Virus record (IMG/VR): IMGVR_UViG_3300042451_001197
Span: 42,820-106,819 of that record
Origin: a virus
Length of the DNA: 64,000 bases
Reading direction: 5' to 3' (one strand)
The notes under the pieces are model-generated. The model did not search any database. It saw only the letters and a list, made by a program, of their open reading frames with translations, and was not told where the DNA came from. A program made the position numbers and the translations under genes. Below, piece after piece: positions 58,414-63,416 of this stretch (positions are counted from its first letter, which is position 1; each line of letters opens with the position of its first letter).

Positions 58414-59863
58414 GTCTATAGTAGTACTTATCATTTCCACAATTAAAAATTCTATTATACCCCATTTCGGTCATTATTTGATGTTCGGTTTTATTTTTAT
58501 CGGCACCATTCTTAACTAATTTATGTTTCTGATAGTTAACACGATTTTCTCTAACCCCATTAACAACATAATGGTAATTAGGTTTTGTTCTGCCAACATA
58601 ATTAAAACCCAATTTTTTATATAATTCACCACTAGCCCAAGAAATATCGCAATATGATATCACCCCTAAAGGTTTATATTCATTAAGAAATGAATTAAAT
58701 AATTTTGACGCCCCTCCAATAACTGAGGTATTTAATTTATTACAAAATCTAACTAACTCATATTCACCATCTTTCACATTTTTATTCAAAACTTTTCTCA
58801 TTTTCATAAAAGTCATAAGTGAAACTAATTCGTTATTATAATATAACCCATAATTAATATTAGTATTAACAAACCCTTGTAAGTGATTTAGAGTTAAAAA
58901 GTGTTTAACAATTTCTTTATCCGTTATTTTTCTAATTTCAGTTTTACGAGCATAAATTTTTTCAGACTTATTTAAAAGATTTTTTATTATAGATTCAACG
59001 ATTTCTCTTTTCTTATCGAAATCATCTTCAAATATATGAATTAATCTTATATTATTTTTTTCACATAATAATGTTTTATTAATGTGGTAATCTTTATCAA
59101 CGAACAAATCGGAATGCCATCTTACTCCGTTGAATTCAAATCCCAACTTTAATTCAGGTATGTAAATATCAATTTCTTTTCTTTCTACTTTGAAGGAGGT
59201 TATAACCTCATTTTCATACACTTCACTTATTATTTTCCCCAATAAAATTTCTTTACCCGATACATTACTATCGATTGGTTTACAAATCGGACAAACTTCG
59301 GTACCTACAATTTTTCTATTTGAGAATATTCCTTTAGGTAATTTATTATCACCATGCAATTGACATCTAATTATGAAATTTTTATCGTCTTGATCAACAA
59401 CATCCGGATTTTTTTTCTTAAAATTTTCAAATGCAGTTTTTTTTATTTTCTCTCGTTCGATCGAACCTCTACTTTCTTTCCATAGTTCACTTTGTCTAAA
59501 ATGTTCAGTTCCCCATTTTTTTAAACTTGTTTGTTTTGATTTTTCTTTGAAAATTTTTGTCTTATACGGATTATTACCTCCGAATACCTCAATTAATTTT
59601 TTCTCTCTTTTTTCTTTACTACATTTAGTGGAACAACTATAATATCCACCATTATTAATGGATTTATTATATCTCCTTAATTGTATCTTGACATCTTTAC
59701 CACAAACATCACATTTGGCATCGACAATTAAATGACTTTGGGGGTTAACTAATTCTATGGGTAATTTATTAACTTGATTGAAAACAACGGGTATGTTATT
59801 TTTTCTATAATAATCACATACATTCCCAGTAATTCTTATTTCGAGTTCTTTAGTTAAAAGCAT
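58388..59863 (-). CDS. free-standing homing endonuclease, Hef-like PD-(D/E)xK
   Basis: IDIYIPELKLGFEFNG..WHS..HIFED, then YARK..NHLQG..ELVRF..GGASKL; likely start MLLTKE. Confidence 0.75.
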   Translation of the reverse strand: MLLTKELEIRITGNVCDYYRKNNIPVVFNQVNKLPIELVNPQSHLIVDAKCDVCGKDVKIQLRRYNKSINNGGYYSCSTKCSKEKREKKLIEVFGGNNPYKTKIFKEKSKQTSLKKWGTEHFRQSELWKESRGSIEREKIKKTAFENFKKKNPDVVDQDDKNFIIRCQLHGDNKLPKGIFSNRKIVGTEVCPICKPIDSNVSGKEILLGKIISEVYENEVITSFKVERKEIDIYIPELKLGFEFNGVRWHSDLFVDKDYHINKTLLCEKNNIRLIHIFEDDFDKKREIVESIIKNLLNKSEKIYARKTEIRKITDKEIVKHFLTLNHLQGFVNTNINYGLYYNNELVSLMTFMKMRKVLNKNVKDGEYELVRFCNKLNTSVIGGASKLFNSFLNEYKPLGVISYCDISWASGELYKKLGFNYVGRTKPNYHYVVNGVRENRVNYQKHKLVKNGADKNKTEHQIMTEMGYNRIFNCGNDKYYYRPIQLSHQP

Positions 59864-59897: not shown

Positions 59898-59916
59898 CAT
59901 TTGTGTCCACCGATTT

Positions 59917-61386
59917 TTAAAAATATTTTCTTAAATGTTTTCTTATCGATTCTCTTAAATTCCGACTATTTTCTTCAATTTTTTGCTTCAATACATTCAC
60001 AAATTCGGATTGAACCATCTTCGTGAACTTAACATAGGGAGCATCTTCAGCATTAGGATCATATTTATATTTCCCTTCAGGTGGTCTTTTTGACCTTCCG
60101 AGATAATTTAAACTTGAAATGTTCGTAATACATTTGTGTCCCCCACTATTAGCCTGAATCAAATCCCAAGCATTTATGGTGACCCCATCAAGTAAAGTTT
60201 TTTCTTCTTCAGTCAAATCTTTAAATGGTTTATCCATAATTTCTTCAAGTCTTGATATTGATTCTTCATTTTTTGAATTAAACTTATCTCCGTATAACGC
60301 TTTAAAATCTTTGAATGTAAATCCTACCGACTCTTCACCGAATTCTTTTGAGCTTTCAGATATCCACTTAATAGTTGATAATGGAATTTCTTTTTCTTTT
60401 AATTTACCTTCCCATTTACTTAAAACCTCTTGCGCAATTTCGCCAAGATTTACTCCTTTAAGTTCTCTTTCTTTTTTAAATGGATTACAAGACGCTTGTA
60501 CTAAACCTAACGGCCAAGCAATAACTAAAAAGTCAGCTTCAGGATTGTTTTTAAATGGTGTATATCTATCATAAGAACCAGGAGAAGTCATCTTACCCCC
60601 ACCATACTGAACAATTATATTCCCATCAACTTTAACATTTGGGTGGGATTTCATCTGTTCAATATATGATTCTTTATTTTTTTGTAGTTGTGGAATTGTT
60701 GCGTAACCTTTTTCAGTCATTAAACGTTTTATGTTCAATAATATGCTAAGTAAAGATGGTTTTGAGGTCATTACAAGTTCCTCTAAAAAACCTGGTTTGT
60801 TTTTAAATGCTAATAATAATTTGTTTGTCACCAAACCCATTTTCATTTTATTAACCCCTGCCGATGAATCTTTATCTAATTTGAATAAATAATTTATAAC
60901 CTCGTCCACACTAATATCTTTTGACGCATAGTTCGCCGAATCTACCGTTGATATTAAAGTTAAGTCTTCGTTCGGGAATATTTCTTTTGGTGAAACAATT
61001 TGTGATATAGTTTCAACGTTTGATCTTGACGGCCTAAAACTTGTTGACGTTCCTTTTTCAACACCGGCTTGTCTATCGTGATGGTCTGTATGTATAATAA
61101 ACATTGGTTTCCCGTGAGCAAAATCAACTAAAACAGGCATAACATCACCACTCGCGTCATTCTTTTTTACGGCAAATTCTTTATCCCCGTATTGAATGAC
61201 GTGAGCATCGATAACTTTAATTCCGTTATTTTCGAGATACTCTCTAATAGCTATTGCGGTAGTTACTCCGTCAAGCTAAAGATCCTGGTGGAAGTAGATT
61301 TCCGCTTTTTTGTAGCGTTCTGCGAGAGATTTAATCCCTCTTAATCCACTTTCCGCCAGGACCGATTTGTTTTTTCTGGTAGTCAT
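59917..61386 (-). CDS. DHH-family phosphoesterase with in-frame TAG at codon 37 (CTT TAG CTT)
   Basis: ATG at 61386 in frame: ...IYFHQDL*LDGVTTA..LVDF..TDHH..SGGHK. Confidence 0.8.
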
Positions 61387-61399
61387 AGTTTATATTGTT

Positions 61400-62296
61400 T
61401 TATAATAAATATTTAGTTAATGAAAATAATTCGTCCAATGTTATAGAACATTTGTCTTGTTTTCTACAATTTTCGCTCTCCGTTAAAACTTCTAAATTTT
61501 CTTTAGCCGAAATTATTTTAGGTGGTACATTATTTTTAAATCCTTCAAAAATACTAAACTTATGGTCAATATGATAAAATCCTCTACCAATTTTTAACTG
61601 ATTAGGATTTATCGATTCTTTATGTAATTTATAATTTTTTGTTGTTAAAGACCTAACCTGTTTTTTATAATTTTCTATTTTTTTAATTTCTTCATCAGTC
61701 AATGAAAGTTTTAAAGAATCATAGTAACACTTTTCACATATGTATTTATTATTTTTTCTACTAAAGTTAAGATATTTCTTTATCAATAAGTGATTGTTAT
61801 TACATTTAACTTTCATTAAACTATTTTTACCATTTATTTTGACAATTTCAACTAAATTAAAATTTTTATCTTCTACAATTTTTTTTAAAAAAAATTCGTC
61901 TATTATGGGTTGATTTTTCTTTATTTTAACTTCGTTTTTTTTGGACGGGTTATTATCCCCAATCCACTTTTTAGAAAAAAAATCTTTCAATTTATTTAAT
62001 TTTTCAGTTTCTAAAAAATCCTCCCATTTTCTATGGTCTCCAAATCTACCATTACCTTCACCGGTACATTGGCATGGTCTACAAATTTGAGTCTGAAAAC
62101 TCATTTTTTCTTTTTTCAAATGACAAGCAGATATTGAATGTATTTTGTTAGGATATTTACAATTTTGGTTATCGCAAACCCAAATAACTTTAAAATTAGA
62201 TATTCCAGGTTTTTTACAGGTGATATTTTCATCAACTAATTCATAGTGAATTAATTTTTTTTTATTAAATCTAGGTTTCCAAATACTTTTTATCAT
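61400..62296 (-). CDS. free-standing HNH endonuclease
   Basis: Zn ribbons, GEGNGRFG, C-terminal HIDH..NL..EN..K. Confidence 0.8.
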   Translation of the reverse strand: MIKSIWKPRFNKKKLIHYELVDENITCKKPGISNFKVIWVCDNQNCKYPNKIHSISACHLKKEKMSFQTQICRPCQCTGEGNGRFGDHRKWEDFLETEKLNKLKDFFSKKWIGDNNPSKKNEVKIKKNQPIIDEFFLKKIVEDKNFNLVEIVKINGKNSLMKVKCNNNHLLIKKYLNFSRKNNKYICEKCYYDSLKLSLTDEEIKKIENYKKQVRSLTTKNYKLHKESINPNQLKIGRGFYHIDHKFSIFEGFKNNVPPKIISAKENLEVLTESENCRKQDKCSITLDELFSLTKYLL

Positions 62297-62369
62297 AAAG
62301 GAGGTTTTAATTATAAATATTTGTTTTTTATAAAAAACCCATCTAAATCGTTATGGAAGTAGTTATTTT

Positions 62370-63416
62370 TTAAATTAATTTACCTATTGCAGATGGTCCA
62401 CCGATTAAATTAATTAAATCACCAATAACGTCTACGTTAGATTTATTTGTTGTTTGTTGAGTTTGGGTTGGTGTTTCGGGGGTAGTCTCTTGTTTAAATA
62501 AATTACTCAAATCAGTATTTCTAAAGTCTTGTAATGCCAATGCCTGACCTTCAGGTGTTTTATTGTATTCAGCGATTTTAGCATCTAAATCAGGAACTTT
62601 TTGAGCCAATTCTTCAGGAGAACCTGTAAAATTAGTCAAACCTATTTTATCTAAAAGTCTTAAATACCATTTACTGCGTCTAAGTAAAGATCTTGTTGCC
62701 GGATTACCTCCAAATAATCTTGGTGCTCCAGCCGCAAATTTTTCTAAAAATGTTCTATCCGCTGAGGTCATATATTTAAGATAAGACCATTTACCGGTTC
62801 CGTGACCTCTAAACATTTTAGGTCTAACACCTGATTTATATTCTTTAGTTGCCTTTACTATCATATCAACCCATTCTTCAATAGTTTTAACAAACCCTTT
62901 ACCTCCAGGAACTCTTTTAATTAATTCAACTAATTTAGGCCCTAAAGTACCGATTTCTTTGAACAATTTAACCAAAATAGGATATTTTGAAGCCGCCATA
63001 GCCCATTCAGTTGGAGTTTTTAATCCTTTTAAAAATTTAGCCCCCTTTCCTCCGGCCTTTAAAGCACCAATTATTGGTTTACCTACTAGGTCACCAACAT
63101 ATGGGACTGCAGATATTAAAGACATCAATCCAAATAATTTATCTCCTTGTCTAAAATAATCAAGAGCGTTAATAATATCAACAACTCCTGTCGGGTCAAA
63201 AACCCCAACAATATCTCCAAGAGTATTCCACCATCTCGCTTCATTTATTTTTTTTGAATTTTTTGGTGAAAATTCTTTAATAAATTCAACCACAAATTTT
63301 TTATCACTTGAAGATAATTTATCCCATTTTTCTTCAAGTATTTTGAATTGCTCTTCCTTATAGATTTCAACTAATCTAAATTTTAGTTGTGTCTCAGTTA
63401 ATATTGTTTGTTTCAT
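62370..63416 (-). CDS. probable virion-associated protein with pre-toxin TG-like segment, MKQTILTETQ leader
   Basis: DIVGVFDPTGVVDIINA..GD..SLISAVPYVGD. Confidence 0.55.
   Translation of the reverse strand: MKQTILTETQLKFRLVEIYKEEQFKILEEKWDKLSSSDKKFVVEFIKEFSPKNSKKINEARWWNTLGDIVGVFDPTGVVDIINALDYFRQGDKLFGLMSLISAVPYVGDLVGKPIIGALKAGGKGAKFLKGLKTPTEWAMAASKYPILVKLFKEIGTLGPKLVELIKRVPGGKGFVKTIEEWVDMIVKATKEYKSGVRPKMFRGHGTGKWSYLKYMTSADRTFLEKFAAGAPRLFGGNPATRSLLRRSKWYLRLLDKIGLTNFTGSPEELAQKVPDLDAKIAEYNKTPEGQALALQDFRNTDLSNLFKQETTPETPTQTQQTTNKSNVDVIGDLINLIGGPSAIGKLI

What the first reader, a model, noticed from the sequence alone, without database searches (positions are those of the whole stretch)
62310..62365. 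Uninterrupted copy of the DHH motif DNA sits beside the HNH promoter
Seen: on the - strand, 62361-62338 reads TAC TTC CAT AAC GAT TTA GAT GGG (Y F H N D L D G) in intergenic DNA about 18 nt before the TATTTAT motif of the HNH gene. It mirrors the DHH gene's TAC TTC CAC CAG GAT CTT [TAG CTT] GAC GGA but has AT-rich codons and no insert. Knowledge: I-TevI autorepresses by binding an operator resembling its homing site at its late promoter. Inference: this is a homing-site-mimic operator that reveals the endonuclease's target; a guide or repair-template role is a less likely alternative.
Basis: partly seen in the sequence, partly recalled or inferred. Interest (0 to 1): 0.75.

Follow-up and report, generated by a model that had tools for sequence, protein, structure and literature searches.

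The report
Target-site copy beside homing nuclease promoter
A selfish DNA-cutting gene in this large phage keeps, next to its own promoter, a conserved 24-base copy of the unbroken gene sequence it most likely attacks in rival phages, probably as a docking site through which the enzyme controls its own expression.

Summary
The 24 nt at 62361-62338 (- strand) copy the uninterrupted DHH motif-I DNA. They match the resident, interrupted gene at 17/24 and natural insert-free alleles at up to 21/24. The consensus of all copies matches the target consensus at 20/24.

The copy is conserved upstream of HNH orthologues in at least six deep lineages (52-62% protein identity). A T-run always follows, and the phage's promoter-like ATATTTATA lies about 18 nt further on. 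Pairwise identity is 0.72 in the copy and 0.36-0.46 in its flanks and spacer. Its conservation has a 3-nt period like the coding target, although the copy is non-coding. It is missing only where the HNH has no promoter of its own. It is not a terminator.

The HNH behaves as a homing endonuclease: there is an empty-site relative and a co-conversion tract. Every orthologue with readable downstream DNA precedes a DHH gene whose motif I is split by a 6-, 8- or 9-nt stop-containing insert. This resembles T4 MobA with gene 60.

Best reading: an I-TevI-like operator through which the HNH regulates, probably represses, its own promoter. Binding is untested. The scan has noted similar mimics on other phage DNA. 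I rate it a new variant of a known kind.

The parts
62338..62361 (-). 24-nt copy ('mimic') of the uninterrupted DHH motif-I DNA; candidate HNH operator
   Evidence: It matches the target consensus at 17-24/24 across lineages. Mean pairwise identity is 0.72 against 0.36 in the left flank. Information content has a 3-nt period.
62332..62337 (-). Conserved T-run directly 3' of the copy. It replaces the GTNACN of the real target and may be the upstream (-33/-35-like) promoter element.
   Evidence: pairwise identity 0.91. The promoter role is inferred.
62312..62320 (-). ATATTTATA, the promoter-like motif of the HNH gene
   Evidence: 44 of 94 TATTTAT copies in the window lie 10-45 nt upstream of ORF starts, against 4.2 expected. 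Pairwise identity among cassettes is 0.92.
61400..62296 (-). Free-standing HNH homing endonuclease gene (298 aa): N-terminal Cys/His-rich domains and a C-terminal H-x-D-H...N...N motif
   Evidence: invariant H242, D244, H245, N267, N276; best fold matches are HNH nickases 4h9d, Z 5.1, and 5h0o, Z 4.5; phrog_5104.
59917..61386 (-). DHH-family phosphoesterase gene, the homing target. It is intact except for the in-frame stop insert in motif I.
   Evidence: PF01368 below threshold in 17/17 homologues; invariant H29, D31, D33, D82, D95-H96-H97, G409-G410-H411.
61267..61296 (-). Interrupted target: motif-I DNA split by CTT TAG CTT (TAG at 61278-61276). Candidate 6-nt stop-hop and immunity insert.
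61327..62369 (-). DNA absent from the empty-site relative L011: copy, promoter, HNH, and a new DHH start with its first ~20 codons. The cassette proper.
   Evidence: L011 is 97.5% identical up to the stop codon at 62370, and then runs straight into its DHH ATG.
60830..61326 (-). Co-conversion tract inside DHH. Identity to L011 is 35-85% here and rises to 92-100% beyond about 60830.
62370..63416 (-). Upstream 348-aa ORF of unknown function. Its stop codon marks the left junction of the cassette.
59898..59911 (-). Second mimic: a copy of the DHH GGHK-site DNA just upstream of the promoter of the second homing endonuclease gene (502-aa ORF 59896-58388; likely true ATG at 59863)

Best explanation
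The segment is a selectively maintained copy of the uninterrupted DHH motif-I DNA, carried by the mobile cassette. That DNA is the site the adjacent free-standing HNH homing endonuclease recognises in phages that lack the cassette. The copy sits at the left edge of the cassette, directly upstream of a conserved T-run and 18 nt upstream of the promoter-like ATATTTATA of the HNH gene. The proposed mechanism is as follows. The HNH protein binds the copy through the same contacts it uses on its homing site. It does not cut productively, because the sequence 3' of ...GATGG is a T-run rather than the target's continuation. From this position it controls RNA polymerase access to its own promoter, most likely by autorepression, as shown for I-TevI. 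The resident DHH gene is protected separately, by the 6-nt stop-containing insert that splits the site. Shown here: the copy, its conservation, its fixed position, its joint presence or absence with the promoter, the homing footprint, and the strict link between the HNH and an interrupted motif I. Inferred: binding by the HNH, lack of cleavage, and repression rather than activation.
For: (1) The copy matches natural insert-free alleles better than the resident gene: 21/24 best for the window, 24/24 for L118/L127, and 20/24 consensus to consensus. (2) It is conserved in 17 distinct upstream regions. Mean pairwise identity is 0.72 in the copy, 0.36 in the left flank, 0.46 in the spacer and 0.38 in the leader; the T-run scores 0.91 and ATATTTATA 0.92. 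(3) Information content by 'codon' position is 1.55/1.62/0.91 and correlates with that of 46 target alleles (r = 0.64). Several copies contain stop codons, and many third-position changes would alter the amino acid. The constraint therefore acts on the DNA and mirrors a reader that tolerates wobble positions. (4) The spacing to TATTTAT is 18 nt in most lineages (range 15-19). TATTTAT is enriched ten-fold upstream of ORF starts. (5) On the HNH tree the module occurs in at least six deep branches and was lost twice, each time together with the promoter. A degenerate copy also lies upstream of the 30%-identical paralogue in L042. (6) The HNH is a homing element aimed at this site. The empty-site relative L011 and the co-conversion tract show this. 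All orthologues of at least 52% identity with readable downstream DNA have motif I split by a stop insert, and 75 HNH-free alleles are intact. (7) An unrelated second endonuclease downstream of DHH shows the same design. (8) Precedent: the I-TevI operator shares 15/20 with its homing site, overlaps the late promoter, is bound as well as the homing site and is cut about 100-fold less. Operators are also proposed for I-TevII and the HNH enzyme I-TevIII (PMC2988022).
Against: There are no binding, cleavage or transcription data. The promoter is inferred from motif enrichment only, and the transcription start is unknown. The copy lies upstream of the -35-equivalent, centred near -43 if TATTTAT is a -10-like element. 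That position fits activation as well as repression. Two sub-lineages do without the copy. In L118/L127 the copy equals the target over all 24 nt, so protection from self-cleavage would have to rest on the 3' flank, which is unverified. The HNH target is inferred from association, not mapped. In L108/L109 the right half of the copy has decayed although the HNH is intact.
Confidence: 0.6

Rival explanations
1. A non-functional relic: a leftover of the ancestral event in which the HNH module was joined to a DHH fragment, carried along passively at the left end of the cassette.
For: The copy lies at the extreme left edge of the imported DNA. It is dispensable in two sub-lineages. Its right half has decayed in L108/L109.
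Against: It is retained across HNH divergence of about 0.8 substitutions per site, while the adjacent flank, spacer and leader sit at random-level identity. Mimic-specific states are shared across lineages, such as AAY where every target has CAA or CAG. No orphan DHH 5' fragment lies upstream of any copy.
Confidence: 0.1
2. An upstream promoter element, or the site of another transcription factor (phage or host), whose likeness to DHH DNA has nothing to do with the HNH.
For: It has fixed spacing to the promoter-like motif and is present or absent together with it.
Against: The other 43 TATTTAT sites upstream of ORFs in the window show no such element. The contig holds no second copy. A 20/24 consensus match and a 24/24 match to the target, with the same 3-nt periodicity, are not expected for an unrelated site.
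Confidence: 0.1
3. A recombination aid: after the HNH cuts a naive DHH gene, the broken left end, which ends in the motif-I sequence, anneals to the copy. The whole cassette could then be pasted into genomes with unrelated upstream genes.
For: The copy forms the left boundary of homology between cassettes that sit behind at least seven different upstream genes.
Against: The predicted product, an orphan DHH 5' fragment immediately upstream of the copy, is found in none of about 30 loci. The window's own junction lies at the stop codon of the upstream gene, as expected for ordinary homologous repair. Homology of 17-24 imperfect nt is very short. Promoter-less cassettes spread without the copy.
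Confidence: 0.08
4. An intrinsic terminator of the upstream gene (weak CCAT...ATGG hairpin plus T-run), with the DHH likeness arising by chance.
For: In the window, a 4-5-bp stem can be drawn before six T. Many intergenic regions of this phage have a terminator followed by TATTTAT.
Against: The fold is no better than shuffles in five lineages (z -0.5 to +0.8), and the scan calls no terminator there. In six other loci a strong hairpin plus T-run (-12 to -16 kcal/mol) lies 10-20 nt upstream of the copy. The stem is not kept by covariation.
Confidence: 0.02
5. An RNA guide or a repair template for the interrupted DHH gene.
For: It carries the uninterrupted sequence.
Against: It lies upstream of the promoter and often downstream of a terminator, so it is probably not transcribed. 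Several copies differ from any functional coding sequence and contain stop codons. The insert is stably kept in all cassettes.
Confidence: 0.02

Closest known systems
I-TevI autorepression operator (phage T4 td intron; Edgell et al. 2004, as reviewed in PMC2988022)
   Same: A homing endonuclease gene is preceded by a sequence resembling its homing site, placed at its own promoter. The likeness stops where the cleavage determinants would be.
   Different: Here the enzyme is a free-standing HNH, not an intron-encoded GIY-YIG. The copy lies just upstream of the promoter rather than overlapping it. The likeness is higher (17-24/24 against 15/20) and is documented by conservation across many lineages. 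Binding and repression are untested here.
Putative operators of I-TevII and I-TevIII (PMC2988022)
   Same: Sequence-only inference of homing-site-like sites at middle or late promoters. I-TevIII is an HNH enzyme.
   Different: Those enzymes are intron-encoded and the inference rests on single genomes. Here the enzyme is free-standing and the evidence is comparative.
T4 MobA plus the gene 60 bypass cassette (Bonocora et al. 2011, as discussed in bioRxiv 10.1101/2022.08.31.505936)
   Same: A free-standing HNH gene lies immediately upstream of the target gene segment. A non-coding insert starting with a stop codon and flanked by matched codons splits the recognition site and travels with the endonuclease.
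   Different: There is no detectable sequence similarity to the T4 MobA remnants. The gap is 6-9 nt rather than 50 nt. The target gene is not split into two ORFs. MobA is promoter-less and no operator mimic is described for it.
Synthetic 'stop-hops' in E. coli (Weiss et al. 1987, as summarised in PMC5009743)
   Same: Matched codons flank a stop codon, and nine nucleotides specify one amino acid.
   Different: Those are artificial constructs. The review states that no natural in-frame stop-hop was known. Here the pattern is natural and conserved, with all three stop codons.

Membership tests
I-TevI-type autorepression operator | Sequence resembling the enzyme's homing site upstream of its own ORF | tested here: met
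   17-24/24 to the consensus of 46 insert-free DHH alleles; conserved in 17 distinct upstream regions.
I-TevI-type autorepression operator | The site overlaps or occludes the promoter that drives the endonuclease | tested here: inconclusive
   The copy ends 18 nt upstream of the promoter-like TATTTAT and abuts a conserved T-run. The promoter and transcription start are inferred, not mapped.
I-TevI-type autorepression operator | The endonuclease binds the operator about as well as the homing site | not testable with these tools
   Needs EMSA or footprinting.
I-TevI-type autorepression operator | The operator is cut poorly because cleavage determinants are missing | not testable with these tools
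   The only hint is that likeness to the target ends at ...GATGG and a T-run follows.
I-TevI-type autorepression operator | Binding lowers transcription of the endonuclease gene | not testable with these tools
   Needs a reporter assay or in-vitro transcription.
HNH (beta-beta-alpha-Me) homing endonuclease | H-N-H-type catalytic motif | tested here: met
   Invariant H242, D244, H245, N267, N276 in 24 homologues.
HNH (beta-beta-alpha-Me) homing endonuclease | Match to a curated HNH profile or to a solved HNH fold | tested here: inconclusive
   No Pfam or PDB sequence hit. Foldseek found nothing significant. The best VIA matches of residues 199-280 are the HNH nickases 4h9d (Z 5.1, rmsd 3.0, 67 aligned) and 5h0o (Z 4.5), which is weak.
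HNH (beta-beta-alpha-Me) homing endonuclease | Presence/absence polymorphism with a co-conversion tract around the target | tested here: met
   Empty-site relative L011. The cassette at 62369-61327 is absent there, and a divergent tract runs to about 60830.
HNH (beta-beta-alpha-Me) homing endonuclease | Site-specific nicking or cleavage of the cassette-free allele | not testable with these tools
   Needs an enzyme assay.
MobA / gene 60-type endonuclease-plus-bypass cassette | The insert in the target is present exactly where the endonuclease is present | tested here: met
   All orthologues of at least 52% identity with readable downstream DNA have the insert. About 75 HNH-free alleles lack it.
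MobA / gene 60-type endonuclease-plus-bypass cassette | A stop codon after the take-off codon, with a matched landing codon | tested here: met
   A Leu codon, then TAG, TGA or TAA, then a Leu codon. The 8-nt variants shift the reading frame, which excludes simple readthrough.
MobA / gene 60-type endonuclease-plus-bypass cassette | Homology of the endonuclease to MobA | tested here: not met
   BLASTP against the T4 mobA and 60.1 remnants gave E above 0.2. The system is analogous, not a family member.
DHH phosphoesterase | Motifs DxD, D, DHH and GGGH, and a Pfam DHH match | tested here: inconclusive
   All motifs are invariant. PF01368 hits 17/17 homologues, but at 22 bits against a 28.1-bit cut-off.

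The most novel reading that the evidence does not exclude
The copy is more than a simple off-switch: it acts as a target sensor. HNH bound at its own promoter keeps expression low in single infections. When a co-infecting, cassette-free phage brings real target sites, these titrate the enzyme off the operator and expression rises exactly when homing is possible. The unrelated second endonuclease on the other side of the DHH gene shows the same design, so this would be a general circuit of free-standing homing endonucleases. The wobble-periodic conservation of the copy would then be a direct read-out of each enzyme's recognition code.
Probability: 0.15. Interest if true: 0.8.

Novelty: new variant of a known kind. 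Interest (0 to 1): 0.62.

Why it matters
Autoregulation of a homing endonuclease through a look-alike of its homing site has been shown for one enzyme, I-TevI, and suggested for two more, all intron-encoded in T4. Here the same logic appears in a free-standing HNH of an uncultured large phage, and the evidence comes from deep comparative conservation rather than a single sequence. The conservation profile of the copy, with its 3-nt period in non-coding DNA, gives a testable prediction of which bases the enzyme reads. One 2.5-kb locus holds the intact look-alike, the natural target alleles, and a target disabled by a natural 6-9-nt stop-hop. That makes binding, cleavage, immunity and bypass testable together. 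A second, unrelated endonuclease at the same gene uses the same design, which suggests a general rule that could help predict the targets of the many uncharacterised free-standing homing endonucleases.

Tried and rejected
Chance. At the DNA level alone, 17/24 is not significant (0.2 expected per window). Chance was rejected by the peptide-level shuffles (0 of 300) and by the conservation in orthologous loci.

Terminator. The fold is no better than shuffles, the scan calls no terminator there, and real terminators lie upstream of the copy in other loci.

Coding remnant that is still translated. There is no start codon, and several lineages have stop codons in the copy.

General TAG recoding. 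ORF statistics give no sign of it, and all three stop codons occur at the insert.

Orphan DHH 5' fragment upstream of the copy, predicted by the annealing model. None was found in about 30 loci.

Further copies in the genome. None were found.

Exact-pattern scan of viral contigs with a degenerate mimic pattern. It found only two loci that were already known; the pattern was too strict.

Family assignment of the HNH. Pfam, the PDB sequence search and Foldseek gave nothing significant. Only weak VIA matches to HNH nickases came back.

Homology to the T4 MobA remnants. None was detected.

Phage GenBank records. Only two distant huge-phage hits appeared, and none covers the cassette.

Full report
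1. What is in the window. On the - strand the order is as follows. A 348-aa ORF of unknown function runs 63416-62370. A 73-nt gap follows. A 298-aa ORF with a C-terminal HNH motif runs 62296-61400. After 13 nt comes a DHH-family gene (ATG 61386, stop at 59917). A 502-aa ORF follows that matches PHROG 'homing endonuclease' families. The DHH gene is open over 489 codons except for one in-frame TAG at 61278-61276. That TAG lies inside CTT TAG CTT, between the two aspartates of motif I. The coordinates, the 18-nt distance and both sequences are as reported. The window is the end of a 106.8-kb IMG/VR virus contig estimated to be 36% complete. Its GC content is about 28% and it shows no general stop-codon recoding.

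2. Is it more than chance? Within the window alone the case is mixed. A 17/24 DNA match to the insert-removed DHH site is expected about 0.2 times per window. The 7/8 match in translation occurred in 0 of 300 Markov shuffles, and 5 of the 7 base differences are synonymous. Relatives decide the question.

3. The target and its alleles. A scan of viral contigs with the DHH protein gave 80 loci. About 75 carry an uninterrupted I-Y-F-H-Q-D-L-D-G-V-T-T, most often encoded as TAT TTT CAC CAA GAT TTA GAT GGT. Only two have the stop insert. One is a near-identical relative and the other is a 64%-identical one (L052), and both have an orthologue of the HNH immediately upstream. Scans with an HNH alignment (A1) gave about 40 more loci from viral and metagenome contigs. 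Every orthologue of at least 52% identity whose downstream DNA could be read precedes a DHH gene interrupted at exactly this spot. The forms are a Leu codon, TAG or TGA or TAA, then a Leu codon (6 nt); CTC, a stop, GGG, CTT (9 nt); and, in L108/L109, an 8-nt form that puts the long downstream ORF into another frame. All three stop codons occur and no sense codon ever does. The flanking Leu codons are kept, and one variant is out of frame. This argues for a ribosomal hop and against readthrough or recoding. The Atkins review says such 'stop-hops' were known only from synthetic constructs (PMC5009743). Here it matters because it marks uninterrupted motif-I DNA as what the HNH cannot tolerate in its own genome.

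4. The HNH is a homing element. Contig L011 is 97.5% identical to the window from 64000 to the stop codon at 62370, and then continues after one base with its own DHH start. It has no HNH, no copy and no insert. Inside DHH, identity to L011 is only 35-85% from 61386 to about 60830 and 92-100% beyond that. This is the classical footprint of homing: an inserted cassette (62369-61327) plus a co-conversion tract spanning the presumed cut site. Cassette-linked DHH genes also share a distinctive N-terminus (K-N-x-x-V-L-x-E-S-G), which travels with the HNH. The protein has no Pfam or PDB sequence match. Twenty-four homologues keep H242, D244, H245, N267 and N276 invariant. An AlphaFold model (pLDDT 84.8) finds its best, though weak, matches for residues 199-280 in HNH nicking endonucleases: 4h9d at Z 5.1 and 5h0o at Z 4.5. 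It shows no similarity to the T4 MobA remnants. The DHH assignment rests on invariant motifs and a sub-threshold PF01368 hit in 17 of 17 homologues.

5. The copy in relatives. The element recurs upstream of the HNH orthologues in 17 distinct versions. Each is followed by four to seven T and then, 18 nt after the copy in most lineages (15 in L108/L109, 17 in L126, 19 in L110 and L118/L127), by ATATTTATA. The consensus of the copies matches the consensus of 46 insert-free DHH alleles at 20 of 24 positions. Individual copies score 17-24, and L118/L127 are identical to the commonest natural allele. The window's copy matches the best natural allele at 21/24 against 17/24 for its own interrupted gene. 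Among 11 lineage representatives, mean pairwise identity is 0.72 in the copy, 0.91 in the T-run and 0.92 in ATATTTATA. It is 0.36 in the 15 nt to the left, 0.46 in the spacer and 0.38 in the leader. On a maximum-likelihood tree of the HNH proteins, the module occurs in at least six deep branches of the 298-aa clade, separated by about 0.8 substitutions per site. It was lost twice, each time together with the promoter motif, in forms where the HNH start abuts or nearly abuts the upstream gene. A degenerate version with the same T-run and spacing precedes the 30%-identical 252-aa paralogue in L042. Members of that paralogue clade sit in front of DHH alleles whose motif-I flanks are substituted (I-V-T-H-[QM]-D-L-D-G-V-V-S) rather than interrupted.

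6. What kind of constraint acts on it. The copy is not coding: it has no start codon, and stop codons occur in several versions. Yet its information content has a three-base period (1.55, 1.62 and 0.91 bits for 'codon' positions 1, 2 and 3) and follows that of the real target (r = 0.64). Third-position changes occur even where they would change the amino acid (GAT to GAA, AAC to AAA). Whatever reads this DNA therefore cares about the same bases that are constant in a coding target and ignores the wobble bases. That is expected of a homing endonuclease adapted to a protein-coding site (established knowledge of homing-endonuclease target tolerance, marked as such). Mimic-specific states are shared between lineages: A where every target has the C of the Gln codon, and the T-run in place of the target's continuation. 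This argues against repeated copying from DHH genes.

7. What it is not. It is not a terminator. Folds of five versions are no better than shuffles (z -0.5 to +0.8), and the pattern scan finds none there. In L093, L097, L098, L117, L118 and L128 a strong hairpin plus T-run (-12 to -16 kcal/mol) lies 10-20 nt upstream of the copy. That placement, after a terminator and before the promoter, also makes an RNA role unlikely. It did not come from the recipient genome, because the empty site in L011 has nothing like it. It is not the end of an orphan DHH fragment: no DHH 5' sequence lies upstream of it in any of about 30 loci, although the cassette sits behind at least seven different upstream genes. 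It is unique in the contig.

8. The promoter. TATTTAT occurs 94 times in the window, and 44 copies lie 10-45 nt upstream of an ORF start against 4.2 expected. It often comes right after a terminator. I therefore treat it as the phage's promoter motif, but the transcription start is not mapped. None of the other 43 such sites has the copy upstream.

9. Mechanism. The copy is an operator that mimics the homing site, and through it the HNH controls its own promoter. T4 I-TevI provides the precedent. Its operator shares 15/20 with the homing site, overlaps the late promoter, is bound as well as the homing site, and is cut about 100-fold less because the cleavage motif is missing. Similar sites are proposed for I-TevII and the HNH enzyme I-TevIII (PMC2988022). 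By analogy, likeness to the target here ends at ...GATGG, and the 6-9-nt inserts that confer immunity sit inside the likeness. This suggests recognition across the whole 24 bp, with cutting that depends on what follows. Binding, lack of cleavage and the sign of the regulation are all inferred. With the copy centred near -43, activation cannot be excluded. I put 0.6 on this reading. The rivals are a relic (0.10), an unrelated promoter element (0.10), a recombination aid (0.08), a terminator (0.02) and an RNA guide or repair template (0.02).

10. An independent replicate in the same locus. The second endonuclease gene, downstream of DHH, has a 14-nt copy of the DHH GGHK-site DNA at 59911-59898, just before its own TATATTTAT. 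The copy is conserved upstream of orthologues of 61-67% identity in L036 and L053 and equals the commonest natural allele. All four endonuclease-linked DHH alleles read GGG GGA at that site. That state is not exclusive to them, because some unlinked alleles share it.

11. Comparison and novelty. The element works like the I-TevI operator, but the enzyme belongs to another family and is free-standing. It also sits within a cassette that works like T4 MobA plus the gene 60 bypass (bioRxiv 10.1101/2022.08.31.505936) without being homologous to it. Literature searches found no description of this cassette or of operators for free-standing homing endonucleases. Earlier AI notes of this scan report comparable mimics beside endonuclease promoters in other phages. 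I did not test those, and they are not counted as evidence. It is a new variant of a known kind.

Noticed in passing
window 61281-61273 (- strand); loci L093-L126: This is a family of natural short 'stop-hop' inserts in DHH motif I. The 6-nt form is Leu codon, TAG/TGA/TAA, Leu codon. The 9-nt form is CTC, stop, GGG, CTT. The 8-nt form (L108/L109/L123/L124) moves the 438+-codon downstream ORF into another frame. The stop is never replaced by a sense codon. The review PMC5009743 says no natural in-frame stop-hop was known.
   Followed up: partly
window 59911-59898 and 60144-60131 (- strand); L036, L053, L083: The second homing endonuclease (502 aa, PHROG 3339/559) also has a conserved copy of DHH coding DNA (the GGHK site) just upstream of its promoter motif. 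All four linked DHH alleles read GGG GGA where the copy and the commonest allele read GGT GGA.
   Followed up: partly
L005, L006, L042, L129, L130, L131: A 252-aa paralogue of the HNH (about 30% identity) occupies the same position upstream of DHH. There the DHH motif-I flanks are substituted (IVTH[QM]DLDGVVSA) rather than interrupted. This looks like immunity by substitution. L042 keeps a degenerate copy plus T-run plus promoter motif.
   Followed up: partly
window 62369-60830 versus L011: This is a textbook homing footprint. The near-identical relative L011 lacks the cassette, and a divergent co-conversion tract of about 450 nt lies to the right of the insert.
   Followed up: yes
window, whole: TATTTAT (often ATATTTATA) lies 10-45 nt upstream of 44 ORF starts, ten-fold over expectation, and frequently follows a GC hairpin plus T-run. 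It is probably the phage's main promoter motif, with very short leaders.
   Followed up: partly
window 61386-61282; L052, L083, L087 and others: Cassette-linked DHH genes share an N-terminal peptide (x-K-N-x-x-V-L-x-E-S-G-L) that differs from HNH-free alleles (M-K-K-x-L-I-x-E-S-G). It is co-transferred with the cassette and might act as a nascent-peptide signal for the hop, as in gene 60.
   Followed up: no
L030, L033, L041: In L030 and L033, DHH homologues carry an extra segment of about 70 residues between motifs I and II. In L041 the ORF is 805 aa and may be a fusion.
   Followed up: no
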